Source: an uncultured Candidatus Saccharibacteria bacterium
GTDB taxonomy: Bacteria; Patescibacteriota; Minisyncoccia; CAIUEV01; JAHKAQ01
Reading direction: 5' to 3'
DNA: 64,000 nucleotides
Assembly: GCA_964598205.1 (NCBI GenBank)
Contig: CAZRBB010000003.1
Coordinates: 115,186-179,185 of the forward strand
The notes below the pieces were generated by a model that did no database searches, was not told the DNA's origin, and saw only the letters and a program-made list of their open reading frames with translations. Each line of letters opens with the position of its first letter. Position 1 is the first letter of the stretch. Below, piece by piece: positions 871 to 59,912 of the stretch. The position numbers and the translations under genes are program-made.

Positions 871-1638
871 TTAAACTTCGATTTTAGAAAAAAGATAACT
901 GCCGATTGCTAAGGCAATGACCGTGAAGGAAAGTAGCACGAAAAAATCGGTTTGGAAAGTAAAGTGCATTTGAGCAGAAAGAATTCCTCGAATACCATCC
1001 ACTCCATAAGACAGGGGGTTAATATAGGTGATTGTCTGAATTGCTGGCGGAAGGCCGCCTAATGGGAACAAGGCTCCAGAAAGAAAGAAAAGGGGCATAA
1101 TCAGAAAATTGATAATCAACGGAAAAGCTTGCATGTCTTCCATTCGAGAAGCAATGGCTGTTCCAAAGGCGGTAAAAAAGGTGGCCATTAAAATCATATA
1201 AACAATTGCTAAAGGAGCAGTAAGAACATTTTCTGGCCGAAAGCCAACTAAAAGCGCAATGAAGAAAACCACAATTCCTTGGATAGTAGCAACGGTGGCT
1301 CCTCCAAAAGTTCGGCCAAGCATAATTGTCCAGCGAGGAACAGGAGCGACTAAGGTTTCTTTAAGAAAGCCAAACTGCCTGTCGTAAATAACTTCTATTC
1401 CAGCAAACATAGCGGTAAAAATAATGCTCATGGCAATAATTCCAGGGGCAATAAACTGAATGTAATTACCTTCGCCAGCTTTTTGGTAGATTGGTCCAAA
1501 GCCAAAACCTAGGGCCACCAAAAAAAGAACTGGTTGAGCCAAGGAGCCGATCATTCTGGCTCGGGAACGAGAGTACCTTTTAAGCTGGCGAAGCCAAAGG
1601 ATGTAAATGACTTTTGAATATTTTTTTATTTTTTCCAT
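871..1638 (-). CDS. ABC-2 type transporter permease
   Basis: 255 aa with 6 predicted TM helices. ABC-2 permease-like sequence directly downstream of, and overlapping, an ABC ATPase gene. Confidence 0.75.
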   Translation of the reverse strand: MEKIKKYSKVIYILWLRQLKRYSRSRARMIGSLAQPVLFLVALGFGFGPIYQKAGEGNYIQFIAPGIIAMSIIFTAMFAGIEVIYDRQFGFLKETLVAPVPRWTIMLGRTFGGATVATIQGIVVFFIALLVGFRPENVLTAPLAIVYMILMATFFTAFGTAIASRMEDMQAFPLIINFLIMPLFFLSGALFPLGGLPPAIQTITYINPLSYGVDGIRGILSAQMHFTFQTDFFVLLSFTVIALAIGSYLFSKIEV

Positions 1639-2417
1639 ACGCGTCTCATGTCTCTTAATTTATCTATTCCCTTGGCGCTTTCTTCTCGGATCTGTTTACC
1701 AGTAAGCAAAAGAAAAGCTTCTTCCAATGTCTTAGTGGCAGTTTTTTCTTGAAGTTCCTTGGCCGTTCCTTGGGCCACGATTTCCCCATTATCTATAATA
1801 GCGATTTGGTTGGCCATTCTTTGGGCCTCTTCCATGTAATGAGTGCTAAAAAAAACGGTAATGCCTTCTTTTTGGTTCATGTCTTTGATGTAGCTCCATA
1901 AGTGGTTTCTAGTTTGTGGGTCTAGTCCAATAGTTGGTTCATCTAGGAAAATTATTTTTGGGTGATGAAGCAATCCCCTGGCAATTTCGAGGCGCCTCTT
2001 CATGCCTCCAGAAAATTCTTTTACTAGATCGTTGCGACGATTTTCTAGTTCTACTATTTGCAAGAGTTCATCGATTCTTAATCGGCGGATCTTTCAGCGA
2101 ACATCATAAAGAACCCCATGGAATTCTAGGTTTTCAAAGGCAGTTAGTTCGTCGTCTAAACTTGGGTCTTGAAAAATTATACCAAAAGAACGACGGACAT
2201 CGTCTGGGTTAGTTACCGGATCAAAACCATTGATTAGAATTTTTCCACTAGTTGGCTTAAGGAGGGTGGTGAACATTTTAATAGTAGTGGTTTTTCCGGC
2301 ACCATTGGGACCAAGGAACGCAAAAATTCCTCCTTTTTTTACACTAAAAGAGATGTTATTAACGGCGGTAATGTCGTTGAATTTTTTTGTTAGATTTTTA
2401 ACTTCGATAATATTCAT
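1626..2417 (-). pseudogene. ABC transporter ATP-binding protein interrupted by one in-frame TGA (stop at 2094-2096). The N-terminal part is 2097-2417 and the C-terminal part 1626-2093, in the same frame.
   Basis: Walker A GPNGAGKTT lies in the 2094..2417 fragment. ABC signature LSGGMKRRLEIARGL and Walker B IIFLDEPTIGLD lie in the 1626..2063 fragment. Reading through gives ...YDVR*KIRRLRIDELLQIVELENRR..., and 2063 and 2096 are in the same frame. Confidence 0.6.
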
Positions 2418-10246: not shown

Positions 10247-11653
10247 ATGAAGCTAGACATTGCCGAGCTTAATTGTAAGATTGGGGAGAAAATTATTTTT
10301 TTAGGTTGGGCGGAAAGGATTAGAAGCCATAAGAATGTGGCTTTTATTGACTTAAGAGATCGTTCGGGAGTGGTTCAGGCAGTGGTAACTGGTGGAGAAA
10401 AGCTGGATTTTTTAAACAAGGAAATAAAAACAGAAAGTCTTTTAAAGATAGAGGGATTAGTCAAAGAGCGGCCAGAAAAGTTGGTGAATCCTAAATTGGT
10501 TACGGGAGGAATAGAGGTGGATGTAGAAAAGTTAGAAATTTTATCTAGCACTCTCGATCTACCATTTGTAATCAATGAGGACACCAAGGAGGTTTCAGAG
10601 GCTTTGCGCTTAAAATATCGTTATCTAGATTTACGATCAGAACGAATGCGGCGCAATTTAGAATTTAGACATAAGTTTAATCTTTTTTTAAGAAACTATT
10701 TTTCTAGGGAAGGTTTTTGGGAAATAGAGACACCTTTTTTGGCCAAGGGAACGCCAGAAGGATCACGGGAGTATATTGTTCCTTCTCGTTTGCATCAGGG
10801 AGAATTTTTCGTTTTGCCTCAGTCGCCGCAGCAGTTTAAACAGCTGTTAATGGTGGGAGGAGTAGAGAAATATTTTCAGATTGTTCGTTGTTTTAGGGAT
10901 GAAGACCAAAGAAGCGATCGTCAGCCAGAATTTACTCAATTGGATTACGAAATGTCTTTTGTGGAAGAAGAAGATGTGCTGGAATTTACAGAAAAAGTAG
11001 TTTTAGCTTTACTAAAAGAGTTAGTGCCAGAAAAAAATATTCTTAAAACGCCATTCCCGCGGTTAACTTATGCTGAGGCAATGGCTAAGTATAAAACCGA
11101 TAAGCCCGATCTTCGCTCCGATGGAGAAAAAGACATGCTGGCTTTTTGTTGGATAACGGATTTTCCTTTGTTCGAAGAAAGCGAAGAAGAAGGTAGGTTG
11201 GTTTCGGCGCACCATCCCTTTACAGCTCCAAAAGAAGAAGATGCAAAATTTTTAGAAAAAAATCCCGAAAAAGCGCGGGCCAAAGCTTATGATTTAGTGT
11301 TGAATGGTTATGAAGTGGGTGGAGGAAGTATTCGGATTTTTCAAAGAGAATTACAGGAAAAAATATTTAAGGTTTTAGGTCTTTCCGAAGAAGAAACAAA
11401 AGAACGCTTTGGCCATATGTTAGAAGCTTTTGAATTTTCTCCACCACCGCACGGAGGAATGGCTTGGGGACTGGATCGATTTATTGCCTTGTTGATGGGA
11501 GAGGAAAATATTAGAGAGGTAATTGCTTTTCCAAAAACTGGCGACGCTAAGGATTTATTAATGGGAAGTCCTTCACCGCTTCCAGAAAAGGCGTTGAGAG
11601 AGGCGGGAGTGGAACTGAGGAAGAAAAAATTAACTGGGAAATCTTCTCTTTGA
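10247..11653 (+). CDS. aspS: Aspartyl-tRNA synthetase, short archaeal/eukaryal-like type without the GAD insertion
   Basis: Class II motifs: FRDED...QPEFTQLD (motif 2) and GGGSIRIF (motif 3), plus an N-terminal OB-fold anticodon-binding domain. 468 aa. Confidence 0.8.
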   Translation: MKLDIAELNCKIGEKIIFLGWAERIRSHKNVAFIDLRDRSGVVQAVVTGGEKLDFLNKEIKTESLLKIEGLVKERPEKLVNPKLVTGGIEVDVEKLEILSSTLDLPFVINEDTKEVSEALRLKYRYLDLRSERMRRNLEFRHKFNLFLRNYFSREGFWEIETPFLAKGTPEGSREYIVPSRLHQGEFFVLPQSPQQFKQLLMVGGVEKYFQIVRCFRDEDQRSDRQPEFTQLDYEMSFVEEEDVLEFTEKVVLALLKELVPEKNILKTPFPRLTYAEAMAKYKTDKPDLRSDGEKDMLAFCWITDFPLFEESEEEGRLVSAHHPFTAPKEEDAKFLEKNPEKARAKAYDLVLNGYEVGGGSIRIFQRELQEKIFKVLGLSEEETKERFGHMLEAFEFSPPPHGGMAWGLDRFIALLMGEENIREVIAFPKTGDAKDLLMGSPSPLPEKALREAGVELRKKKLTGKSSL

Positions 11654-11659
11654 TTTTCT

Positions 11660-13414
11660 ATGAAGAAAAAGACAGTACAAATTAAAAAATCCTCTCCAAT
11701 TTTAGTAACGGCAGCGTTGCCTTATATTAATAATGTTCCCCATTTGGGGCATATTGCTGGTTCTCATTTGCCGGCGGATATTTTTACTCGTTATCTTCGG
11801 GCTACTGGCAAGGAAGTATATTTTGTAGGTGGTTCGGATGAGCATGGAACGCCTTCGGTAATCGCTGCTAAAGAATTGGGAGTTCCGGTACAGGTTTTGG
11901 CTGATCGATTGCACGCTATTCATAAAAAAGTTTACCAGAAATTGGGGATTAGTTATGACAATTACTCCCGGACTTCTTTAGCTAAACATCATTTAGTAAC
12001 ACAGGATTTTTTTAGGGAGATCAAGAAGAAATCTGAATTGATATTAGAAAAAGAAGCGGAAATGTATTACTGCGAAACGGATAAGATGTTTTTGCCGGAT
12101 CGTTTTGTGGTGGGGGTTTGCCCAAAGTGTGGCTATGATTCGGCGAATGCCGATCAATGCGAGGTTTGTAGCCAAGTGATTGCACCAGGAGAATTAATTT
12201 CTCCTTGTTGTAAGGTTTGTGGCTTGCCGCCAATAATGAAAAAAACTAAACATCTCTATCTTGATTTAGAAAAACTCTCTCTGTTATTGAATCGTTGGAT
12301 TGAAGGCAAAAAGAAAATATTTAGGCCATATGTTTATAGTTCGGCTAAAAAGTGGATTAACGAAGGGCTTAGAGCCCGATCTATTACTAGAGATCTTACC
12401 TGGGGAGTGAAGGTGCCCCAAGAAGGATTTTTAGATAAGGTTTTTTATGTTTGGTTTGATGCGCCGATTGGTTATTTAACTTTTACCAAAGAGATAAAAG
12501 AAGATTTAGAAAAAAGACTGTGGCAAGATAGAGAAGCGCGCATTTATCATTTTGTAGGGAAAGACAATATTCCTTTTCATACTATTTTTTGGCCAGCATT
12601 ACTTTTGGCGGAAGGCAAACATAATCTTCCTTATAATGTGATTGGACTGAATTATTTGAATTACGGTGGCAAGAAATTTTCTAAAAGCAAGGGGGTAGGA
12701 GTGTTTTGTTTGAACTTGCTTGATTCGCCTATTAACATTGATACTTTGCGAGCGTATTTGGCAACAGTGATTCCCGAAACCAAGGATTCTGATTTTAAAT
12801 GGGAAGAGTACCAAGAACATACCAACAGTGAGGTGATTGGAAAGTTGGGTAATTTTCTGAATAGAACTCTTTCCATGATAGATAATTATTTTGGCGGAAA
12901 GTTAGAAGCGGATTTGGGGGCTAAGAAAAGATTAACGGACCTAGATAAAAAAATTCTAAAAGAAATCAAAAATTCTTCTAAAAAGGTAGGCGGATATTTA
13001 GTAAAGGCAGAAATTCGGAAGGGATACAGGGCGGTAATGGATTTAGCACGGGCAGGGAATGTTTATTTTGATCGCTCCAAGCCGTGGGAATTAATGAAGT
13101 TAGGAAAAAGGGAAGAGGCAAAATTGGTATTGCGCTTGGCTTTCTTTTTGGCAAGATCACTGATGATTACGGCAACGCCTTTTATGCCGGAAGGAATGGC
13201 GGAAATTTGGCAAAAGCAGTTTGGCTTTTTGGGATCGCCGGGAGATTGTGGTCGGTGGGAGGAGGCAGGCGAAGTAGATTTTTCTGTGACTTACCGAACC
13301 AAAAAACCCAAGCCTTTTTATTCTAGAATAGAGGATAAAGATTTAGAGGAATTAGAAAAAGATTTGGGACAGAAGCCGGCTTTAAGAGAAATAGTAGGCT
13401 CAATTAAGAATTAG
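11660..13414 (+). CDS. metG: Methionyl-tRNA synthetase
   Basis: HIGH-type motif PHLGHIAG, KMSKS as KFSKSKG, and zinc knuckle CPKCGY...CEVC. Confidence 0.9.
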   Translation: MKKKTVQIKKSSPILVTAALPYINNVPHLGHIAGSHLPADIFTRYLRATGKEVYFVGGSDEHGTPSVIAAKELGVPVQVLADRLHAIHKKVYQKLGISYDNYSRTSLAKHHLVTQDFFREIKKKSELILEKEAEMYYCETDKMFLPDRFVVGVCPKCGYDSANADQCEVCSQVIAPGELISPCCKVCGLPPIMKKTKHLYLDLEKLSLLLNRWIEGKKKIFRPYVYSSAKKWINEGLRARSITRDLTWGVKVPQEGFLDKVFYVWFDAPIGYLTFTKEIKEDLEKRLWQDREARIYHFVGKDNIPFHTIFWPALLLAEGKHNLPYNVIGLNYLNYGGKKFSKSKGVGVFCLNLLDSPINIDTLRAYLATVIPETKDSDFKWEEYQEHTNSEVIGKLGNFLNRTLSMIDNYFGGKLEADLGAKKRLTDLDKKILKEIKNSSKKVGGYLVKAEIRKGYRAVMDLARAGNVYFDRSKPWELMKLGKREEAKLVLRLAFFLARSLMITATPFMPEGMAEIWQKQFGFLGSPGDCGRWEEAGEVDFSVTYRTKKPKPFYSRIEDKDLEELEKDLGQKPALREIVGSIKN

Positions 13415-13486
13415 TAATTCAGTATTGTTCGGTTTGTAATCGAGTTTGAGGGAGGGGGCACCTTAAAAAAACAGGAGGATCGCCTA

Positions 13487-13837
13487 ATGAGAAAGAAAAA
13501 TGGTGGAAATGGAAGGAATGGAAAGGGAAGTGGCGGTGGAATATCGTTGATTCGTTGCCTAGTTTGCTTGGATATCCATGGTTGTTCTTCTGAAAAATGG
13601 GGAGTTTGCTTTTGTGGGCTACTGTGCCGGCGTCGTCGTCGCTGTTTAATCCCATGGAGAAAAGATCTTATTTTTGTTTATCAAACTTGTATTCTATGTG
13701 CCGTTAAAAGTCAGATTCTTTTTAAAGGAACCAGTTTTTTAAACCCATTGGACGAACTCTTTCAATTATTGCCACCGGACTTTTCGGAAATTGTACCGGT
13801 AGAAATTGAAGCGGCGAAATTAAAAGAGTGCTGTTGA
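13487..13837 (+). CDS. Small Cys-rich protein (116 aa, 13 Cys, Gly-rich N-terminus); hypothetical
   Basis: Complete ORF with a strong SD aggagg 8 nt upstream, inside a GC-rich islet. The competing antisense ORF has no SD. Confidence 0.35.
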   Translation: MRKKNGGNGRNGKGSGGGISLIRCLVCLDIHGCSSEKWGVCFCGLLCRRRRRCLIPWRKDLIFVYQTCILCAVKSQILFKGTSFLNPLDELFQLLPPDFSEIVPVEIEAAKLKECC

Positions 13838-13904
13838 TTTTGGTGGAAGCGAAGTTTTTTGTTGAATCAGACCTTTTGTTGATCAATACGAGGGAGGTGA
13901 TTCG

Positions 13905-13973
13905 ATGAGCAAAGGGATGAAAAAATGGTTGAAATCTAAATGGTGGAGACAGGCAAAGAAAAGAAAATGTTAA
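13905..13973 (+). CDS. Candidate 22-aa cationic Trp/Lys-rich peptide MSKGMKKWLKSKWWRQAKKRKC
   Basis: Perfect SD gagggaggtga 4-5 nt upstream of the ATG. No homology claimed. Confidence 0.3.
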   Translation: MSKGMKKWLKSKWWRQAKKRKC

Positions 13974-14077
13974 TAATAAACGGAACGGCTCAAAATGAGC
14001 GCAAGACGGCCATCAATTGGAGAAGATGGTCGTTTTAATTTTGTTTTGATTTCTGTCTTTAATTATTTTGGCGGAAA

Positions 14078-14125
14078 TTGAAAAGAGACCCAAGGAAGCA
14101 AATTATAAGCTTTCTGGGGTCTCTT
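14078..14125 (-). terminator. Rho-independent terminator for the minus-strand secreted-protein gene
   Basis: 9-bp stem aagagaccc/gggtctctt, followed on the minus strand by TTTT. Confidence 0.55.
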
Positions 14126-14141
14126 GTTGGGGGTTATTGGG

Positions 14142-15281
14142 TTAGTTGCCGATACACTGGCAATTTAAAAATTTCCACTCTACCGTTTCCCAGCTATAAG
14201 CGCCATTTCTGCTGGGAATAGGAACGGTTCTGGCGTGGACTTCGGCGCTGTGTCCGGAGCAAGGAGTGGGCGTGGTGTTGTAATAAATCACTTTTGCCTC
14301 CCACTTCATTCTGCCTTGGTTCCATTGCAAGGAACCGGAGACATCGCAATTCCCCTTGGTACTATCATTTTTCTGCTGGAAAATAGGGGTTAGCCCATTG
14401 TTGCAGCCGTCCAAGACACTCCAATATTGGGTGTTCCGGATTTCCAGTTCTGCTCCCGGAGTGCCTGGTATCCCCAATTCCCAGAAATATCCAAAAATCG
14501 GGTGCGTTGGACATGGTTCTGGTGCGCCATTGTAAGTCAAGATCAAGCGCAGCCAGCCCCAATGGGAGGTGTAGACCAATGATCCCGAAATGTATTCGTT
14601 GCTTTCGGTGCTTACCGGACATTGAAGCATGGCCGGATAATTTTCGCATCCGGTAATGCATTCAAATTTTTTCCACTCCACTGTCTCCCAGGCAGAAGTG
14701 CCAGGGCGATTTGGGATGCGGATGTTTTGGGAGTGTTTCCCAGCCGGATGAATCTCGCAGGGTGGCGGTGCCCCATTGTAAGAGATAGCTTTCGCTTCCC
14801 ATTTTTGAGTACCCGCATTCCACTGCAAGGAACCGGAAACATCGCAGCCACTTTTCTGGGAATCATTTTGGGCTTCAATAATTACTTGGAGCCCGTTGGT
14901 GTATGTTCCGCAATTGGTACTTTCATCACAGGTGAATCTTTTCCACCGTGTGGTTTCTCCTATTTCCGTCCCTGGTCCAGGAGGAAGATTCTGTAAATAT
15001 ATCCAGGCCTCATGTTCCGGGCAAGGGACTGGCGTTTGATAGTACAGGAGAAGCCCGGCAATCCATTTTTCTCCTGACCACCAAAAGCCTGCGTCCATTT
15101 GGCAACTGTTCCAGCTGCCATCCGTTACTCCTGTATGAACTTCGGGGTAGGTAGCGGTGGTGGAATTTATTGTTTTGGCGGTCGTATTGGCCGCGGCCAT
15201 GTTAGTGTTTAAAAAACTTGCTCCAATCAAAAAAACGATCAGGGCGACTAATACGGTGAAACCGGCTGTTCTTTTTTCCAT
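14142..15281 (-). CDS. Secreted Cys/Trp-rich protein with internal tandem ~60-90 aa repeats; function unknown
   Basis: N-terminal signal/TM segment. Repeats of type CDVSGSLQWN.G..KWEAK.I.YN..P.PC..H......IP.R.G..WETVEWK.F.C, containing (QxW)-like motifs. Coding sequence is ~50% GC versus ~35% for the flanks. Confidence 0.7.
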   Translation of the reverse strand: MEKRTAGFTVLVALIVFLIGASFLNTNMAAANTTAKTINSTTATYPEVHTGVTDGSWNSCQMDAGFWWSGEKWIAGLLLYYQTPVPCPEHEAWIYLQNLPPGPGTEIGETTRWKRFTCDESTNCGTYTNGLQVIIEAQNDSQKSGCDVSGSLQWNAGTQKWEAKAISYNGAPPPCEIHPAGKHSQNIRIPNRPGTSAWETVEWKKFECITGCENYPAMLQCPVSTESNEYISGSLVYTSHWGWLRLILTYNGAPEPCPTHPIFGYFWELGIPGTPGAELEIRNTQYWSVLDGCNNGLTPIFQQKNDSTKGNCDVSGSLQWNQGRMKWEAKVIYYNTTPTPCSGHSAEVHARTVPIPSRNGAYSWETVEWKFLNCQCIGN

Positions 15282-21892: not shown

Positions 21893-22828
21893 ATGTTTGG
21901 AATTGCAAGAGGAAGAAAACGGGAAAGAAGTTTGGCTATTGGGGCGACTGGCAGTAACGGTCGCCAGGTGTCCGGTATTTTTACGGACATCGATAATACA
22001 TTTGTTTATGATGGCTGCAAAGCGGCTACAGTGGCTGTTCTGGGCCTGGCGTGCAAACGCCGGATGCCCGTAGTTGCAGTGACCGGGGCGGATTTAAATT
22101 CGGTTTTTTCACGAATCATGGCAGACGAACTGCCATACTTTAGGGCCCTGGCTACTTCTTGCGGAACGGAGATTTATTTTTTGTCCAAAGGAGGGTATTA
22201 CCAGGATCATCATTGGGATAACCAGCTCCGAAGCAGGTTCAACCGGAAAGAAGTTTTTTTCCGGGCGGAGAATTTGGCAAGGGAATGGGCTGTAACAAGC
22301 CCAGGCTGTGAACTGGAAATTCAGAAGAAGAAGGTTACCGAGAAGTACAAGGTAAGCTTCTATTTTAAAGCCAGCGACGGCTTGGTAGCGTCGATGGCGG
22401 CAGAGGAAATTTTAAGCTACTTTTCTGAGTACCAGTTGGCTTGGTGTGAGGATATTACTTGGGAACCGAAAGACGGTTTGCGGCGGTACTGTGTGGATGT
22501 GTTAGCCGCAAACAAGCAAGACGCGGTAGAATACATTACGGAGCAACTTGGGATCACTGATGGCATTGTAGCTGGAGATTCTGGCAACGATGCCGAAATG
22601 GTTCTGGATTGCGATCGGCGTTTTGTCGGAGTAGTTGTTGGCGGTGCGAGGGAAGAGCTGAAAGAAGCGCTCCGCAAGCGTGATCCGCGGCCAGTCGGCA
22701 AAATCCAGGACAGCAGAGGTTTTTCTCGGTACTACCTTGACGGACGCTTTGTCCTGGTGGACGAACATCCGGACAGGAGAGGGCCGGAGTCAATTTTAGC
22801 AGCTCTGGAGGTGCTTTACAGCGCTTAA
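21893..22828 (+). CDS. HAD-IIB phosphatase, sucrose-phosphate phosphatase-like
   Basis: Motif I TDIDNTF and motif IV AGDSGNDAEM. SD gagggagg. GC-rich coding sequence. Immediately upstream of the SPS-like gene. Confidence 0.75.
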   Translation: MFGIARGRKRERSLAIGATGSNGRQVSGIFTDIDNTFVYDGCKAATVAVLGLACKRRMPVVAVTGADLNSVFSRIMADELPYFRALATSCGTEIYFLSKGGYYQDHHWDNQLRSRFNRKEVFFRAENLAREWAVTSPGCELEIQKKKVTEKYKVSFYFKASDGLVASMAAEEILSYFSEYQLAWCEDITWEPKDGLRRYCVDVLAANKQDAVEYITEQLGITDGIVAGDSGNDAEMVLDCDRRFVGVVVGGAREELKEALRKRDPRPVGKIQDSRGFSRYYLDGRFVLVDEHPDRRGPESILAALEVLYSA

Positions 22829-22897
22829 GGAGTAAAAATCAAAAAAACCAAAAAACAGAAGCAGGCTCTGGGGCGACTTGGGGCCGAGGAGTGGATA

Positions 22898-24268
22898 ATG
22901 GAAGCGACAGCAAAAACAGCGACAGGACGGCAAGAGGCGGGGAAAGCCATTTACGTGGTTAGTACCCATGGTTACTTTGACCTGAGTTCGGAGACCGGCA
23001 GTGTATCGACAGCCGGTCGGCCGGACACCGGTGGGCAGACGGTATATACCGTCGAGCTTGCCAAGGCGTTGGGCCGGCTGGGCTACCTGGTATTTCTCGT
23101 GGTCCGGTGGTTTGACCCGTCCAAAAGAGAGTTGCAAAAGCTGGGCGATAATGCCTGGTTGCTGCGACTTCGGGGCGGACCTTGGGGATTCGTTCCCAAG
23201 GAAAGGATCTACTCGTTACTTCCGGAAATTTCCGACAATCTGGTCTCCTTTATAGAGGATGACTGGAAGGAAATGTTTAGGGAAGCAGGCGATAAGGCAC
23301 CAGAAAATGTAGATCCGGCACTGATCCATGGCCACTACATCGATGGCGGATTAGTAGCCGTTTCCGTGGCCCGCCATTTCCGTTGTCCGGTTTTTTGGAC
23401 CAGTCATTCGCTGGGTGCATTGAAAAGAGAGCGGATGGGTGGTGATCCCGAAAAGATGGAAACGGAGTTCAACTTTCGTCATCGGATAGAACAGGAAGTA
23501 GCGGTGATGAAGAAGGTCGCTAAACATGGCGGACAAACAGTGACCGCCAAAACAGAACCGGGGGACATTGAGCGCCTTTATGGGCTTGAGTTGCCGGATC
23601 TGCAGTTTATTCCGCCGGGGGTGGACACAAAAAAGTTTCATCCACTGCCATGTGGGAAAGAGATTGATCCGATTCCCGGTTGGCCAGCAGTTGGTGGACC
23701 TGTTGTCTTAATGGGTGGCCGGATTGCTAAGACCAAGGGCTATGAGCTAGCGCTCTATGCGTTTCACCGAGTGTTGCGTGAATTTCCAGACGCAAGCTTG
23801 GTGATATTTGGTGGATCGGATAACCCGTCTGGAGAGGAACAAGCTGTTCTCCAGGTAATGGACGATTACCGGGAAAAAAAAGGGATTGCCCGGCGCGTCT
23901 TTTTTCTTGGTGGCTTGACCCATGACCAGCTTCCAAAAGTTTACCGGCGAGCAGACTTGTTTTTGCTGCCGAGCAAGCACGAACCTTTTGGGATGGTACC
24001 GCTGGAGGCAGCAGCTTGCGGAACACCGGTAGTGGTCAGTTGCCATGCCGGGATTGCTTCGGAACTGAAGGACGGCGAGAATTGTTTGATCGTTGATCCC
24101 GAGGATACCCACGAGTTGGCAGAAGCGATGGCGACGCTGTTGCGCTCTTGCGAATGCGCCAAAAAAGTCGCTAAAAACGGTCACTTGACCGTCACCCGGG
24201 ATTATTCTTGGGAAGGCATCGCCAGGAGGCACTTAATTTTTTGGCGCGCCAATGGCGCCGTGATTTGA
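22898..24268 (+). CDS. Sucrose-phosphate synthase-like GT4 glycosyltransferase (GT domain only)
   Basis: GRPDTGGQTVYTVELAKALG, IHGHYIDGG, SHSLGALKRERM, PPGVDTKKF and EPFGMVPLEAAACGTPVV align with the SPS/sucrose-synthase family signatures. Confidence 0.85.
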   Translation: MEATAKTATGRQEAGKAIYVVSTHGYFDLSSETGSVSTAGRPDTGGQTVYTVELAKALGRLGYLVFLVVRWFDPSKRELQKLGDNAWLLRLRGGPWGFVPKERIYSLLPEISDNLVSFIEDDWKEMFREAGDKAPENVDPALIHGHYIDGGLVAVSVARHFRCPVFWTSHSLGALKRERMGGDPEKMETEFNFRHRIEQEVAVMKKVAKHGGQTVTAKTEPGDIERLYGLELPDLQFIPPGVDTKKFHPLPCGKEIDPIPGWPAVGGPVVLMGGRIAKTKGYELALYAFHRVLREFPDASLVIFGGSDNPSGEEQAVLQVMDDYREKKGIARRVFFLGGLTHDQLPKVYRRADLFLLPSKHEPFGMVPLEAAACGTPVVVSCHAGIASELKDGENCLIVDPEDTHELAEAMATLLRSCECAKKVAKNGHLTVTRDYSWEGIARRHLIFWRANGAVI

Positions 24269-24329
24269 ACCTTATAGCAGGGAGGAAGAAGAGAAGCCTA
24301 ATTGCTTTTACTTCTACCTCCCTTTTTTG

Positions 24330-24358
24330 TTACCAATAAAATAAAAGTATGATATAGT
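24330..24358 (+). promoter_or_regulatory. Sigma70-like promoter TTACCA-N17-TATAGT with extended -10 TG
   Basis: Shares the 15-mer tatgatatagtatga with the promoter at 21760-21788. Confidence 0.6.
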
Positions 24359-24429
24359 ATGAAAAATAGATCGGAGCACCTTACCAAAAACAAACAACCC
24401 CCAACATCTGGTTGAGGGAGGTACTTTAC

Positions 24430-25191
24430 ATGGGAACTCTTGTATTCGATATCGACGGAACATTGACTAAGGCAGGAGGGTTCGCGGCCGTTCCATGTGA
24501 ACCTCCAACAGAAGTAAAAACCGCTATCCAAGCACAGCAACGAAAGCATCAGATCGTGCTGTTAACTGGACAACCTTTGCGCGTGGCTACCGGGATGGCT
24601 AGAATGCTGGATCTTCCGCATTGTTTGGTAGCACCAGACTATGGGGCGTTCGTTTGTAGCCCAAGAAATCTGGCAGAAAAGGAGTTTCTGATTAATAGAA
24701 AGGCTTTAGAGGCTTTAATGTTGGTTAAGAATTTTTTAGTGCCGTCGTTTCAAAAATTAGGAGGCAGAATTGACTCCCGCGACGGCATCGGCATTATCAG
24801 TTTTATTTGGGAGTGTCGAGATGGTTGGGCCGATGCTCAGCGGCTCGTGGTCTCTTCTGCCTACGACAAGTTTGTGGCTAATAACGGTTTACGGTTTCAG
24901 TGGAACAGGATTGATTTGTCCATGAATGTAATGCCGGCCGAGCTTTCAAAGGGACTGATTGCTTCCAGGTATTCCGATATTCTGGTGGCAGCCGGAGACA
25001 CCAGCAGCGATCTGCCGGTAATTCAAAAAGCTCTTTTTCCCATAGTTACCCATGACGAGGGAATGTCGATTCATCCTGATCTTGCGGCAGTCGCTGTGGA
25101 TCGGGGATATATCGCTTCCCCAGAAGAACATCATGGATGGGGGTTGATTTCAGGACTCCAAGCTGCACAAGCGGCTGGGATACTGAATTAA
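24430..25191 (+). CDS. HAD-IIB phosphatase (second SPP/Cof-like paralog). The start is placed at ATG 24430.
   Basis: FDIDGTLT and AAGDTSSDLP motifs. SD gagggagg 8 nt upstream. Confidence 0.7.
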   Translation: MGTLVFDIDGTLTKAGGFAAVPCEPPTEVKTAIQAQQRKHQIVLLTGQPLRVATGMARMLDLPHCLVAPDYGAFVCSPRNLAEKEFLINRKALEALMLVKNFLVPSFQKLGGRIDSRDGIGIISFIWECRDGWADAQRLVVSSAYDKFVANNGLRFQWNRIDLSMNVMPAELSKGLIASRYSDILVAAGDTSSDLPVIQKALFPIVTHDEGMSIHPDLAAVAVDRGYIASPEEHHGWGLISGLQAAQAAGILN

Positions 25192-29448: not shown

Positions 29449-29570
29449 GAACCTTTTGGTCGGAAGATAAACTTCTCCCAAACGGCTCAAAATGAGTCGG
29501 AAAGAACATTACAAACCAATCAACAAAAAATCCAAATGGGTAAGAACCAATAACCGAGGGAGGTTAAAGC

Positions 29571-31142
29571 ATGGAAGCACAAGCACAAACATTACAGAGT
29601 CAGGGGCAGACTGTTGCCAGCATAGCGACGGTCAAAGAATTACAACTTTTTAATGCACCGGTAGTAAATTGGGTGCGCGGCTGGCCGGCAATTAGTTTTG
29701 AGCCGGAGTTTTCCAAAGAAGGCAACCAGATTGCGGATATTATTCACGCGGGATGTTATGCTAAGCGAGTGCCAGTGGAAGTAGTGAAAGAGCTGGTGAA
29801 GATTGCTTACGCAACTGGCTTAGTTGCTGGTAGTGATGGGCATCGGATCGGTTACGACGGTTCTTGTATTGCACAAATTGCCCCGGAGTGCGCAGGTCGG
29901 AACGGTGACGGAATTTTTCTGGCTGATCTTGACCGGTTACGGAGCCAAAAGCCGGCGAGCGTTCCGGAATTTGTGACGCAGAGCGTAAAGTTTTTTCAGC
30001 GGAACGGAGATTTATTTTCCGGATTCTCCGGTTGCAATGGCGACTTTTCCAAAAAGTTTAAGTATGGAGTTTTCCGGATGGAATCGCTTTATTCCATTCC
30101 GCCGGGATTTAGGGAAATGGGACTTGAGGATTTTTTCCGCTTCGTGGCGATAAATCTTTGGGAGCGAAAAGAATTGTTTGGGGAGAATTTTGTGGAGGTG
30201 CATCGATCTTCTACAATTCCAAAGGACGACGACCCCGAAAGATGTTTATTCGAAACCTTTGGTCACTGGGAACAACTGGAAGGCGTCCTGGACACACAGC
30301 AGTGGGGGAAGGTGCCGCTTTTCTGCCGCATTGCTCCGTCTTACGGTGAGTGCTGTTTGGGGTGGGAACTGGCAATCACGGTGACCGATCCTCGGTCCAA
30401 CCTGTTTACCGTTGGGGTAAATATGGTGTGGGACAGTGTGCGGCATCAGTTTGTGCCGATTATCAACAAGATCCAGACCATGGTGCTTCACCTCGACAAG
30501 TGTCTTCGGTATTGGGGGCAGGAAATGCTTTCTGACGACGAGCTCTTGAGCCGAAAACTGTTCTTGGAGCTTCAGGGGGAAATCAACAAGTTTTTGGGTG
30601 GTGACCTGTTTTACACCATGATCGCCGCGATTGTTTCTTTCTATCGGTTGCGAGAGTATCCAGCAATCAAGGGGATTTGCGGTCGGGATAATCTTTGGCT
30701 GAAGTATCACGCCAAAGAAGTTCTGGCCAAGAAGGGTGTGGCGGCGGCAGAACAGGTACGGAAACGATCGGAGGAGATTTACGACAAGAAATTTGCTCAC
30801 CTGGGATTTGCCCGAACGCACGGTTGCTGGGAATTGCCGCAGGAGAGCTATGCTAAATTTCTTCGGCGAGCACTGGTTCCATATCAACTGGCACAAAACG
30901 AGATCATAAGGGTAGAGGTGGAGCGAGGCGGTCGGATTCAGCCAAAGAACATTAGTCTTCCGACTTATGCGGAAAAAACAACGCCGAATGGGTTGGGAGC
31001 GGTTTTAAAGGTGATGGACAATTGTTTTTGTTCCGTCCCCTTGGAGATTGGTTCCTTTCAGGGGATAGGCGAAGTTCTCCAGGAACGGCGGAACGAGCGT
31101 TCAAGAATCAAAAAAGAGAGGGAGGCCCTGTTGATTGGTTAA
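29571..31142 (+). CDS. Hypothetical protein, 523 aa, GC-rich, with no recognisable motif
   Basis: Long clean ORF with SD gagggagg 6 nt upstream, ~50% GC, and a terminator at 31180-31212. Confidence 0.6.
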   Translation: MEAQAQTLQSQGQTVASIATVKELQLFNAPVVNWVRGWPAISFEPEFSKEGNQIADIIHAGCYAKRVPVEVVKELVKIAYATGLVAGSDGHRIGYDGSCIAQIAPECAGRNGDGIFLADLDRLRSQKPASVPEFVTQSVKFFQRNGDLFSGFSGCNGDFSKKFKYGVFRMESLYSIPPGFREMGLEDFFRFVAINLWERKELFGENFVEVHRSSTIPKDDDPERCLFETFGHWEQLEGVLDTQQWGKVPLFCRIAPSYGECCLGWELAITVTDPRSNLFTVGVNMVWDSVRHQFVPIINKIQTMVLHLDKCLRYWGQEMLSDDELLSRKLFLELQGEINKFLGGDLFYTMIAAIVSFYRLREYPAIKGICGRDNLWLKYHAKEVLAKKGVAAAEQVRKRSEEIYDKKFAHLGFARTHGCWELPQESYAKFLRRALVPYQLAQNEIIRVEVERGGRIQPKNISLPTYAEKTTPNGLGAVLKVMDNCFCSVPLEIGSFQGIGEVLQERRNERSRIKKEREALLIG

Positions 31143-32754: not shown

Positions 32755-32780
32755 AAAGCGCGCCACTGGCGCGCTTTTTG
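32755..32780 (+). terminator. Rho-independent terminator
   Basis: agcgcgcc-actg-ggcgcgct + TTTTT. Confidence 0.8.
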
Positions 32781-32790
32781 ATATTTAAAT

Positions 32791-32932
32791 GGACTTACGC
32801 GTAGCCGCATATTTCTTTGTTAAAACCTGCGCCACTCGCTCACCGTAACCTAATTACGTCCCGCCTCGGACGGCGGGCATGCTCGCTCGCTTGCTCGGTT
32901 TTGCCTCGAACTATACTCAAACGCGTAAGTCC
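32791..32932 (+). repeat. Dispersed TIR repeat family, copy C (full length, 142 bp, 12-bp perfect TIR ggacttacgcgt/acgcgtaagtcc, with GC-hairpin insert)
   Basis: Reference copy. Convergent intergenic region between the small acidic ORF and zupT. Confidence 0.85.
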
Positions 32933-32947
32933 TAATTTTTAAGAGAA

Positions 32948-59762: not shown

Positions 59763-59776
59763 TTCTAAATTATTAT

Positions 59777-59895
59777 GACTTACGCGTAGCCACATATTTT
59801 TTCGTTAAAATCTGTGCCATTCACTCACCGTAACCTAATTATGCCTTACTTGCTTTTCCGGTTTTGCCTTGAACTATAATCAAACGCGTAAGTCC
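59777..59895 (+). repeat. Dispersed TIR repeat family, copy G (full length without GC insert) between hrcA and grpE
   Basis: gacttacgcgtagccacatattttttcgttaaaatctgtgccattcactcaccgtaacctaattatgcc...ggttttgccttgaactataatcaaacgcgtaagtcc. Confidence 0.85.
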
Positions 59896-59912
59896 TAATA
59901 ATATTAAAGATT

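What the first reader, a model, noticed from the sequence alone, without database searches (positions are those of the whole stretch)
13905..13973. 22-aa cationic Trp/Lys peptide ORF with a perfect Shine-Dalgarno
The ORF atg agc aaa ggg ... tgt taa encodes MSKGMKKWLKSKWWRQAKKRKC, which is 10 K/R and 3 W in 22 residues. It lies 4-5 nt after GAGGGAGGTGA, the best SD in the window. The composition is that of amphipathic antimicrobial or membrane-active peptides. It does not fit ribosomal L34 or L36. It could be a small toxin or bacteriocin, or a regulatory upstream ORF. The neighbouring 116-aa Cys-rich ORF (13487-13837) could be a partner.
Basis: seen in the sequence. Interest (0 to 1): 0.5.

Follow-up and report, generated by a model that had tools for sequence, protein, structure and literature searches.

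The report
Unannotated 22-codon cationic ORF, strong RBS
A 22-codon reading frame for a very basic, tryptophan-containing peptide sits behind an unusually strong ribosome-binding site and ahead of a terminator, so it is probably translated, but it has no detectable relative anywhere and nothing supports the proposed antimicrobial role.

Summary
ORF 13905-13973 (+) encodes MSKGMKKWLKSKWWRQAKKRKC, four bases after GAGGGAGGTGA.

The ribosome-binding site is more than chance. The 9-mer GAGGGAGGT occurs four times against 0.45 expected. The other three copies start real long genes. About 80% of genes here have no Shine-Dalgarno (SD). An ATG ORF of at least 20 codons behind an SD of 8 or more bases arose in 0.7% of simulated intergenic sets.

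The ORF ends in TAA TAA TAA. An intrinsic terminator follows 30 bases later. Codon usage is gene-like, and the net charge of +10 is the highest of 424 small ORFs.

I read it as a probably translated last cistron of the aspS-metG-orf116 unit, with P about 0.6.

Conservation could not be shown. No family, PDB, phage, plasmid or metagenome-pattern match appeared. All other copies are 100% identical, and both neighbours are strict orphans.

The antimicrobial reading is weak. The peptide is not an amphipathic helix, and there is no leader, exporter or immunity gene. The upstream-ORF reading fails because no gene lies downstream on that strand. A resemblance to ribosomal peptide bTHX failed a profile test.

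Function stays inferred: polyanion binding is the likeliest. Interest is modest.

The parts
13890..13901 (+). Shine-Dalgarno element GAGGGAGGTGAT. GAGGGAGGT is the window's recurrent RBS 9-mer, and GGAGGTGAT is a 9-nt complement of the canonical anti-SD.
   Evidence: The other three GAGGGAGGT copies (21879, 24414, 29556) lie 5-7 nt before the ATG of ORFs of 311, 253 and 523 aa.
13905..13973 (+). 22-codon ORF ending in TAA, encoding MSKGMKKWLKSKWWRQAKKRKC (net charge +10, 3 Trp, C-terminal Cys).
   Evidence: Codon score is 0.315 bits/codon against a real-gene mean of 0.29, in the top 7% of 260 spurious ORFs. It is the most cationic of 424 small ORFs.
13974..13979 (+). Two further in-frame TAA codons, giving the triple stop TAA TAA TAA.
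   Evidence: It is the only triple stop among 53 ORFs, and 4 of 53 have a tandem stop.
13872..13916 (+). Predicted hairpin (-14.7 kcal/mol). GAGGGAG sits in the 7-nt loop and the AT of the start codon is paired in the stem.
   Evidence: Folding of -30..+30 is -7.9 kcal/mol against a gene mean of -5.1 (sd 3.1), and 24% of genes are at least as structured.
13984..13999 (+). 16-nt motif AACGGCTCAAAATGAG, containing the small hairpin GCTCA-AAA-TGAGC. It is repeated exactly at 29481-29496.
   Evidence: Meaning unknown.
14003..14048 (+). Intrinsic terminator of the + strand unit. It has a 12-bp stem with a 10-nt loop (14003-14036, -15.6 kcal/mol) and runs into TTTTAATTTTGTTTTG.
   Evidence: The consensus scan missed it because the loop is longer than 8 nt.
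13487..13837 (+). Upstream 116-aa Cys-rich orphan ORF (orf116) with its own SD (AGGAGG at 13473-13478). It lies in the same transcription unit.
   Evidence: JGI called it as a gene. It is not in the NCBI set, and the Logan annotation calls an antisense 78-aa ORF there instead.
13448..13455 (+). Second GAGGGAGG 8-mer, 31 nt before the orf116 ATG, with no start codon at SD spacing.
   Evidence: There is a weak sub-threshold preQ1-I-like hit at 13448-13480 (14.2 bits against a gathering score of 39).
14083..14125 (-). Strong hairpin (-24.1 kcal/mol) followed on the minus strand by TTTTCAATTT. It is the terminator of the convergent 379-aa gene and closes the locus.
14142..15281 (-). Convergent 379-aa orphan gene. 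It is SD-led, 49% GC against 38% for the SD-less genes, with an N-terminal hydrophobic helix and three Cys-containing repeats.

Best explanation
The frame is most likely a genuine, translated small cistron that gene callers missed because it is too short.

It is the last ORF of the co-directional aspS-metG-orf116 unit. It has its own very strong ribosome-binding site, an ATG at 6 nt, a triple TAA stop and an intrinsic terminator 30 nt further on.

The product is a 22-residue peptide with net charge +10. It has no acidic residue, no signal peptide, no hydrophobic segment and no amphipathic-helix pattern.

The most likely mode of action is therefore electrostatic plus Trp-stacking binding to a polyanion inside the cell. 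RNA or the ribosome is the leading candidate, then DNA or the inner face of the membrane. This is how the tiny basic ribosomal peptides work. A secreted bacteriocin is less likely.

The ORF belongs to a strain-specific islet of orphans (orf116, peptide, 379-aa gene) between housekeeping genes. It is either young or horizontally acquired.

Shown: the ORF, the RBS and its non-randomness, the terminator, the composition, and the absence of detectable homologues. Inferred: that it is translated. Speculative: the polyanion-binding function.
For: RBS:
- GAGGGAGGT occurs 4 times against 0.45 expected. All four copies are on the + strand, 5-7 nt before an ATG, and three start long genes.
- Nothing else is shared around the four copies, so they are independent sites and not a repeat.
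- The genome is SD-poor. 42 of 55 starts have at most 3 nt of SD match, so a 9-nt match before an intergenic ATG is unlikely by chance (0.7% for at least 8 nt, 0 of 300 for at least 9 nt).

Gene-like anatomy:
- Triple stop.
- A terminator hairpin plus U-tract follows, and the convergent gene has its own separate terminator.

Coding signal:
- Codon score is typical of real genes and in the top 7% of spurious ORFs.
- The charge is extreme, 1 of 424.
- In 1.4 Mb of unrelated DNA (both strands), none of the 29 ATG ORFs with charge >=+7 and at least 2 Trp had an SD match of 6 nt or more.

Against export:
- Low hydrophobic moment.
- Housekeeping neighbourhood.
Against: - No homologue was found. Pfam, NCBIfam, PHROGs, PDB, and phage and plasmid tblastn were all empty.
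- A degenerate K6-R15 pattern gave only out-of-frame or low-complexity noise in viral and metagenome contigs.
- All other copies of the locus are 100% identical, so there are no informative substitutions.
- There is no paralogue in about 84 kb of the same genome.
- The start codon is partly buried in a -14.7 kcal/mol hairpin.
- The other long genes carrying an SD are GC-rich and compositionally foreign. The RBS could therefore be an imported relic rather than a site under selection in this host.
- A purine-rich stretch gives Lys/Arg-rich frames by itself.
- The functional inference rests on composition alone.
Confidence: 0.5

Rival explanations
1. Incidental ORF. The SD-like element is a relic of imported DNA, or a chance match, in the 3' untranslated region of orf116. 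The 22-codon frame has no selected product, and any translation is noise.
For: - There is no conservation of any kind.
- The adjoining ORFs are orphans with poor codon scores.
- Every long gene with an SD match of 6 nt or more, plus one with 5 nt (22898-24268), is GC-rich and compositionally foreign.
- GAGGGAGG also occurs at 13448 with no start codon at SD spacing, so the motif can exist without serving initiation.
- The A/G-rich DNA explains the Lys/Arg content.
Against: - An exact 9-nt SD, an ATG at ideal spacing, an open frame, a triple stop and a terminator together are rare by chance.
- Codon usage is gene-like.
- The ORF is AT-rich (33% GC), unlike the GC-rich foreign genes, so it is not an obvious stump of one of them.
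- No other-frame ORF in the region matches any Pfam family.
Confidence: 0.27
2. It is a membrane-active antimicrobial peptide, a leaderless bacteriocin or a small toxin, and it kills by disrupting anionic membranes.
For: - The Lys/Arg plus Trp composition, with WW next to basic residues, resembles Trp-rich cationic antimicrobial peptides (my own knowledge of indolicidin, tritrpticin and lactoferricin).
- It also resembles Trp-rich leaderless bacteriocins such as aureocin A53 (PMC10354048).
- The RBS is strong.
- The gene content looks like a small-genome, possibly episymbiotic bacterium with many glycosyltransferases and DUF4012, where an attack peptide would be plausible.
Against: - It is not amphipathic as a helix.
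- 22 aa is shorter than the leaderless bacteriocins I recall, which are about 30-55 aa (my own knowledge).
- No transporter, immunity or processing gene lies within about 10 kb.
- It has no hydrophobic segment, which type I toxins have.
- No antisense promoter or RNA is evident.
- There is no PADLOC-type or phage context, though PADLOC itself was not run (for PHROGs).
Confidence: 0.12
3. RNA-level element. The hairpin that displays GAGGGAG in its loop is a binding site for 30S subunits or for an RNA-binding protein. It may be part of a 3'-end-derived small RNA, possibly dual-function. The peptide would be secondary.
For: - The + strand 13838-14141 folds far better than shuffles, with z = -5.15.
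- The SD lies in a hairpin loop.
- Several GGA motifs lie in or near loops.
- Ribosomes bound at strong SDs are known to protect mRNA (B. subtilis hbs, PMC5737220), and UTR motifs can control translation (icaR, PMC3868564).
Against: - Most of the folding energy comes from the two terminators.
- A ribosome parked here would protect only the last ~150 nt, not the upstream genes.
- No promoter was found.
- No Rfam family matches.
- No relatives are available to test covariation.
Confidence: 0.08
4. Leader peptide or attenuator that senses Trp (tandem Trp codons) or Lys supply.
For: The ORF has tandem TGG TGG codons at positions 13-14 and a third Trp codon. It is short and is followed by a terminator.
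Against: - No gene follows on the + strand. The next features are a convergent terminator and a convergent gene.
- By eye, no segment upstream is complementary to the terminator's 5' arm, so no antiterminator is apparent.
- Rfam Trp_leader and other leader models gave nothing here at E<=10.
Confidence: 0.03

Closest known systems
Tiny basic ribosomal peptides, e.g. bTHX (Thermus Thx, 27 aa, Pfam PF17070); also the Bacteroidia-specific bL38 (PMC11851116) and, from my own knowledge, bL36, bL34 and mycobacterial bL37/bS22
   Same: The size is similar (22 against 24-45 aa). The charge is extreme, with no hydrophobic core, signal peptide or transmembrane segment. An ungapped alignment with Thermus Thx shares M-x-K-G...K-x-W-R, and the local score of 33 compares with 21.6 +/- 4.2 for shuffles (p about 0.016).
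   Different: It fails the family test. There is no hit to Pfam Thx at E<=10. It scores -2.3 bits against a profile of four PDB bTHX sequences, and 61% of shuffles score as well. It lacks the conserved G-[KR]-G-D...T...G-K...G...R-P positions. It is not in a ribosomal-protein operon, and no conservation is known.
Trp-rich cationic antimicrobial peptides and leaderless class II bacteriocins (e.g. aureocin A53, PMC10354048)
   Same: It is cationic and Trp-containing, would be made without a leader, and sits behind a strong RBS.
   Different: It is much shorter, is not amphipathic, and has no dedicated exporter or immunity genes. It is chromosomal, among housekeeping genes, with no sequence match.
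Extended SD on rpsU in SD-'blind' Bacteroidia (Flavobacterium johnsoniae; PMC9976891, PMC13000453, PMC7797042)
   Same: It is an unusually long SD in front of a gene for a small, very basic protein, in a genome where most genes lack an SD.
   Different: In this window several other genes also carry strong SDs, and they are the GC-rich foreign-looking ones, so the ribosome is not shown to be SD-blind. The peptide is unrelated to bS21. The organism is not identified as Bacteroidia. Autoregulation is pure conjecture.
Peptide-coding small RNAs and 3'-end small ORFs (RNAIII/delta-haemolysin, SR1/SR1P, SgrS/SgrT; my own knowledge) and catalogued unannotated small ORFs (GMSC, PMC11364881; sORFdb, PMC11796252)
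   Same: It is a short frame with its own RBS in a structured, terminator-ended RNA segment that gene callers miss.
   Different: No evidence exists for a separate transcript or for RNA-level regulation. I could not query those catalogues.

Membership tests
bTHX / Thx (PF17070) | Significant match to the family profile (Pfam gathering score 29.7 bits) | tested here: not met
   There is no Pfam hit at E<=10, whereas Thermus Thx scores 64.6 bits. An own profile from four PDB bTHX sequences gives -2.3 bits, and 61% of shuffles score as well.
bTHX / Thx (PF17070) | Conserved G-[KR]-G-D-x-[KR]-T-x-[KR]-G-K ... G ... R-P positions | tested here: not met
   The peptide has S2, M5, W8, S11, Q16 and K19, and no Pro. 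Only K3, G4 and K12 agree with positions kept in all four PDB bTHX sequences. W14 and R15 match Thermus Thx alone.
bTHX / Thx (PF17070) | Physical presence in the 30S subunit | not testable with these tools
   This needs ribosome purification or cryo-EM from this uncultured organism.
Leaderless class II bacteriocin / cationic antimicrobial peptide | Amphipathic structure (helical hydrophobic moment above the composition-matched expectation) | tested here: not met
   The moment is 0.136 against a shuffle mean of 0.22, and 76% of shuffles are as high or higher. Non-helical Trp-rich peptides are not excluded by this test.
Leaderless class II bacteriocin / cationic antimicrobial peptide | Linked exporter and/or immunity genes | tested here: not met
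   The neighbours are aspS, metG, orf116, the 379-aa orphan, fhs, AdoHcyase and a VTT-domain protein. The nearest ABC-2 permease is at 871-1638.
Leaderless class II bacteriocin / cationic antimicrobial peptide | Antimicrobial or membrane-permeabilising activity | not testable with these tools
   This needs synthetic peptide assays.
Transcription-attenuation leader peptide (Trp-leader type) | Regulatory codons in a short ORF upstream of a terminator | tested here: met
   TGG TGG lie at codons 13-14, and the terminator is at 14003-14048.
Transcription-attenuation leader peptide (Trp-leader type) | Regulated genes downstream on the same strand, and an alternative antiterminator | tested here: not met
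   Only a convergent terminator and gene follow. No complementary antiterminator segment was seen by eye in the sequence, and no Rfam leader hit appeared.
Type I toxin | Hydrophobic membrane-spanning peptide with an overlapping antisense RNA | tested here: not met
   There is no hydrophobic stretch (mean Eisenberg hydrophobicity -0.55). No minus-strand promoter or convincing terminator was found in 13000-14400.
Translated bacterial small ORF (generic) | RBS at proper spacing, a start codon and an open frame inside a transcription unit | tested here: met
Translated bacterial small ORF (generic) | Conservation of the frame in relatives | tested here: inconclusive
   No homologue was found. The only other copies are identical, and the relatives I fetched were chosen with MetRS, which is an unreliable marker here.
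Translated bacterial small ORF (generic) | Direct evidence of translation | not testable with these tools
   This needs Ribo-seq, metaproteomics or a reporter fusion.

The most novel reading that the evidence does not exclude
The peptide is a real, lineage-specific polycationic effector in an SD-poor, small-genome (candidate-phyla-like) bacterium. One form is a new ribosome- or RNA-associated micro-protein whose over-long SD gives feedback of the kind seen for rpsU in Bacteroidia. The other is a leaderless Trp/Lys peptide used against a host or competitor.
Probability: 0.1. Interest if true: 0.55.

Novelty: new member of a known kind. Interest (0 to 1): 0.3.

Why it matters
If it is translated, this is one more of the very short proteins that annotation pipelines cannot see. 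It lies in an uncultured lineage where such genes are essentially unexplored.

Its pairing of an over-long SD with an SD-poor genome offers a concrete test case for how such organisms use SD-led initiation.

As it stands it is a single orphan frame with no conservation or expression data. Its value is as a well-defined candidate for metatranscriptomic or proteomic checking, not as a discovery.

The side observation may be of more general use. In this genome SD-led genes coincide with GC-rich, compositionally foreign genes.

Tried and rejected
A tripled-peptide work-around on viral contigs used the patterns MSKGMKKW and KWWRQAKK and found nothing.
- Degenerate DNA patterns for K7-R15 (viral contigs, 53 hits) and K6-R15 (metagenomes, 76 hits) gave only out-of-frame or low-complexity noise. 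The best-looking hit, L181, lies inside a 381-aa ORF in another frame. The metagenome collection did not return the source contig.
- The synteny route via MetRS failed. The best GTDB hits are 51-55% identical and the best of 5.8 billion proteins is 59%. Their contigs are not syntenic, and one carries diphthamide synthase, so it looks archaeal. This MetRS is therefore a poor marker. My early inference of an 'isolated lineage' rests only on the orphan neighbours and on single-member 90% clusters.
- Population variation gave nothing. All JGI and Logan copies fetched as DNA are 100% identical. An NCBI record also carries the same neighbouring proteins.
- bTHX was an attractive lead from the pairwise alignment but was rejected by profile tests.
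- Rfam shows nothing in 13380-14200. Other-frame ORFs have no Pfam match.
- AlphaFold models of orf116 (pLDDT 44.6) and of the 379-aa protein (pLDDT 36.7) were too poor to search with.
- Searches for paralogues in the window and 10 kb beyond each end found none.
- Phage and plasmid tblastn, and plasmid blastn, found nothing.
- The four GAGGGAGGT sites share no wider similarity, so a repeat-element explanation is rejected.
- An alternative genetic code is rejected. TGA ends 6 of 53 ORFs, and the peptide stops at TAA in any case.

Full report
**What is there.** The + strand carries aspS (10247-11653), metG (11660-13414) and a 116-aa Cys-rich ORF (13487-13837). After 67 nt comes ATG 13905 ... TGT TAA 13973, encoding MSKGMKKWLKSKWWRQAKKRKC. 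The count of 10 K/R (8 K + 2 R) and 3 W is correct, and there is no acidic residue. GAGGGAGGTGA lies at 13890-13900, four bases before the ATG.

The stop is followed by two more in-frame TAA codons. This is the only triple stop among 53 ORFs examined.

Thirty bases after the stop a 12-bp hairpin (14003-14036, -15.6 kcal/mol) runs into TTTTAATTTTGTTTTG. This is an intrinsic terminator that the consensus scan missed because its loop is 10 nt.

A separate, stronger hairpin (14083-14125) has its T-run on the other strand. It terminates the convergent 379-aa gene (14142-15281).

The small ORF therefore sits inside the + strand transcription unit, as its last frame. No promoter-like site precedes it.

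**Is the ribosome-binding site more than chance?** Yes.
- The exact 9-mer GAGGGAGGT occurs four times against 0.45 expected, and 0 of 100 shuffles reached four.
- All four copies are on the + strand, 5-7 nt before an ATG. The other three start ORFs of 311, 253 and 523 aa.
- The four sites share nothing beyond the motif, so they are independent sites and not a repeat.
- The peptide's copy extends to GGAGGTGAT, nine bases complementary to the canonical 16S tail. This is the longest match before any start codon in the window.
- The genome is SD-poor. 42 of 55 starts have at most 3 nt of match and lie behind A/T-rich leaders.
- In Markov simulations of the 7.7 kb of intergenic DNA, an ATG ORF of at least 20 codons behind at least 8 nt of SD arose in 0.7% of runs. 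Behind at least 9 nt it arose in none of 300.

**Other intrinsic evidence.**
- Codon usage scores 0.315 bits per codon. Real-gene segments average 0.29, and the value is in the top 7% of 260 spurious ORFs of 20-30 aa. This is weak support.
- Net charge +10 is the highest of 424 ORFs of 18-30 aa.
- In 700 kb of unrelated loci, 29 ATG ORFs had charge >=+7 and at least 2 Trp. None had an SD match of 6 nt or more.

One point counts against easy initiation. A -14.7 kcal/mol hairpin (13872-13916) puts GAGGGAG in its loop and pairs the AT of the start codon. However, 24% of real genes are as structured over -30..+30.

**A qualification found on the way.** Five long genes carry an SD match of 5-6 nt and form one class: 14142-15281, 21893-22828, 22898-24268, 24430-25191 and 29571-31142. 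All five are GC-rich (48-53%, GC3 45-55%), with codon scores of 0.08-0.16. The 46 remaining genes, nearly all SD-less, have 33-43% GC and a mean score of 0.31 (sd 0.06). GC rises exactly at their start codons.

These genes look horizontally acquired. Three of them form a sugar-phosphate synthase/phosphatase cluster.

So the recurrent RBS marks foreign-looking genes. The peptide ORF (33% GC, score 0.29) and orf116 (40% GC, score 0.13) are SD-led but not GC-rich.

This weakens the argument that 'the host uses this RBS for its own genes' and keeps open that the site is an imported relic. It does not remove the fact that three of three other copies initiate real genes.

**Conservation.**
- The peptide is too short for the large protein searches.
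- Pfam, NCBIfam, PHROGs, PDB, and phage and plasmid tblastn gave nothing.
- Exact 8-mer patterns found nothing in viral contigs.
- A degenerate pattern for residues 6-15 gave 76 metagenome hits. They look like out-of-frame or low-complexity matches, and none has the Met + SD + ~22-aa architecture. The closest-looking one was checked and lies inside a 381-aa ORF in another frame.
- The other copies of the locus that I could fetch as DNA (JGI and Logan) are 100% identical. An NCBI record carries the same neighbouring proteins.
- Both flanking ORFs are strict orphans. orf116 matched only itself among 5.8 billion proteins and 1.84 billion representatives. The 379-aa protein matched only itself.
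- My attempt to reach relatives through MetRS was a poor choice. Its nearest homologues are 59% identical at best, are not syntenic, and one sits on a contig with diphthamide synthase, so it looks archaeal.
- No paralogue exists in about 84 kb of the same genome.

The result is 'no conservation detected, with low power'. It is not 'shown to be unconserved'.

**What it is not.**
- It is not a known RNA. Rfam has nothing in 13380-14200.
- It is not a leader or upstream ORF. It has tandem Trp codons and a terminator, but no gene follows on that strand and no antiterminator is apparent.
- It is not a type I toxin, because it has no hydrophobic segment.
- It is not bTHX. The ungapped similarity to Thermus Thx (p about 0.016 against shuffles; sequence verified in PDB) disappears against the family. 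There is no Pfam Thx hit. It scores -2.3 bits against a profile of four PDB bTHX sequences, no better than 61% of shuffles.
- It is not a convincing bacteriocin. The helical hydrophobic moment (0.136) is below the shuffle mean, it is shorter than the leaderless bacteriocins I recall, and no exporter or immunity gene is nearby.

**Most likely explanation.** I think it is a real, translated, unannotated last cistron (P about 0.6 for translation). It would yield a polycationic peptide that acts by binding a polyanion inside the cell. The functional part is inference from composition and from the lack of export features.

The main rival (about 0.27) is an incidental frame behind a relic or chance SD. 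The antimicrobial reading keeps about 0.12. An RNA-level role for the SD-in-loop hairpin keeps about 0.08, with precedents for ribosome-protected or UTR-controlled mRNAs in PMC5737220 and PMC3868564. The attenuator reading keeps about 0.03.

**Comparison with known cases.** The nearest functional analogues are the tiny basic ribosomal peptides. These include bTHX, the lineage-specific bL38 of Bacteroidia (PMC11851116) and the extended-SD rpsU case in SD-blind Bacteroidia (PMC9976891, PMC13000453, PMC7797042). None is a family match.

It is best filed as a new, orphan member of the general class of unannotated bacterial small ORFs (PMC11364881, PMC11796252).

**Verdict.** Novelty and interest are modest unless expression is shown.

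Noticed in passing
window 14142-15281, 21893-25191, 29571-31142: Five SD-led long genes are GC-rich (48-53% against 33-43%) with atypical codon usage, and GC rises exactly at their start codons. About 80% of genes have no SD and sit behind A/T-rich leaders. In this genome, SD-led genes coincide with compositionally foreign genes.
   Followed up: partly
window ~32760-32935 and ~59770-59905: Two copies of a ~150-nt intergenic element have a conserved core about 80-85% identical, with inverted termini GGACTTACGCGT / ACGCGTAAGTCC and a 15-16 codon frame MAQ(I/V)LTKKY(V/A)ATRKS. One copy lies between hrcA and grpE-dnaK-dnaJ. No Rfam family matches.
   Followed up: partly
window 13448-13480: A GAGGGAGG 8-mer lies 31 nt before the orf116 start with no start codon at SD spacing, followed by an A-run and a second SD. 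There is a weak sub-threshold preQ1-I-like hit (14.2 bits against a gathering score of 39).
   Followed up: no
window 13984-13999 and 29481-29496: The exact 16-nt repeat AACGGCTCAAAATGAG contains a small hairpin. One copy lies just after the peptide's stop codons, and the other lies about 60 nt upstream of the SD of the 523-aa gene.
   Followed up: partly
window 14142-15281 (-): This 379-aa orphan has an N-terminal hydrophobic helix and three ~100-aa Cys-containing repeats (SGSLQWN...KWEAK...YNG.P.PC). It has no homologue among 5.8 billion proteins except itself, and the AlphaFold model was poor.
   Followed up: partly
window 11660-13414; loci L226-L228: The MetRS is only 59% identical or less to anything public. 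Several of its nearest homologues share a metG-decarboxylase arrangement, and one of their contigs carries diphthamide synthase. The enzyme looks archaeal-type or horizontally transferred.
   Followed up: partly
window 1626-2063 and 2094-2417 (-): Two adjacent short ORFs (145 and 107 aa) both hit the ABC_tran ATPase domain, next to an ABC-2 permease. This may be a split or frameshifted ATPase gene.
   Followed up: no
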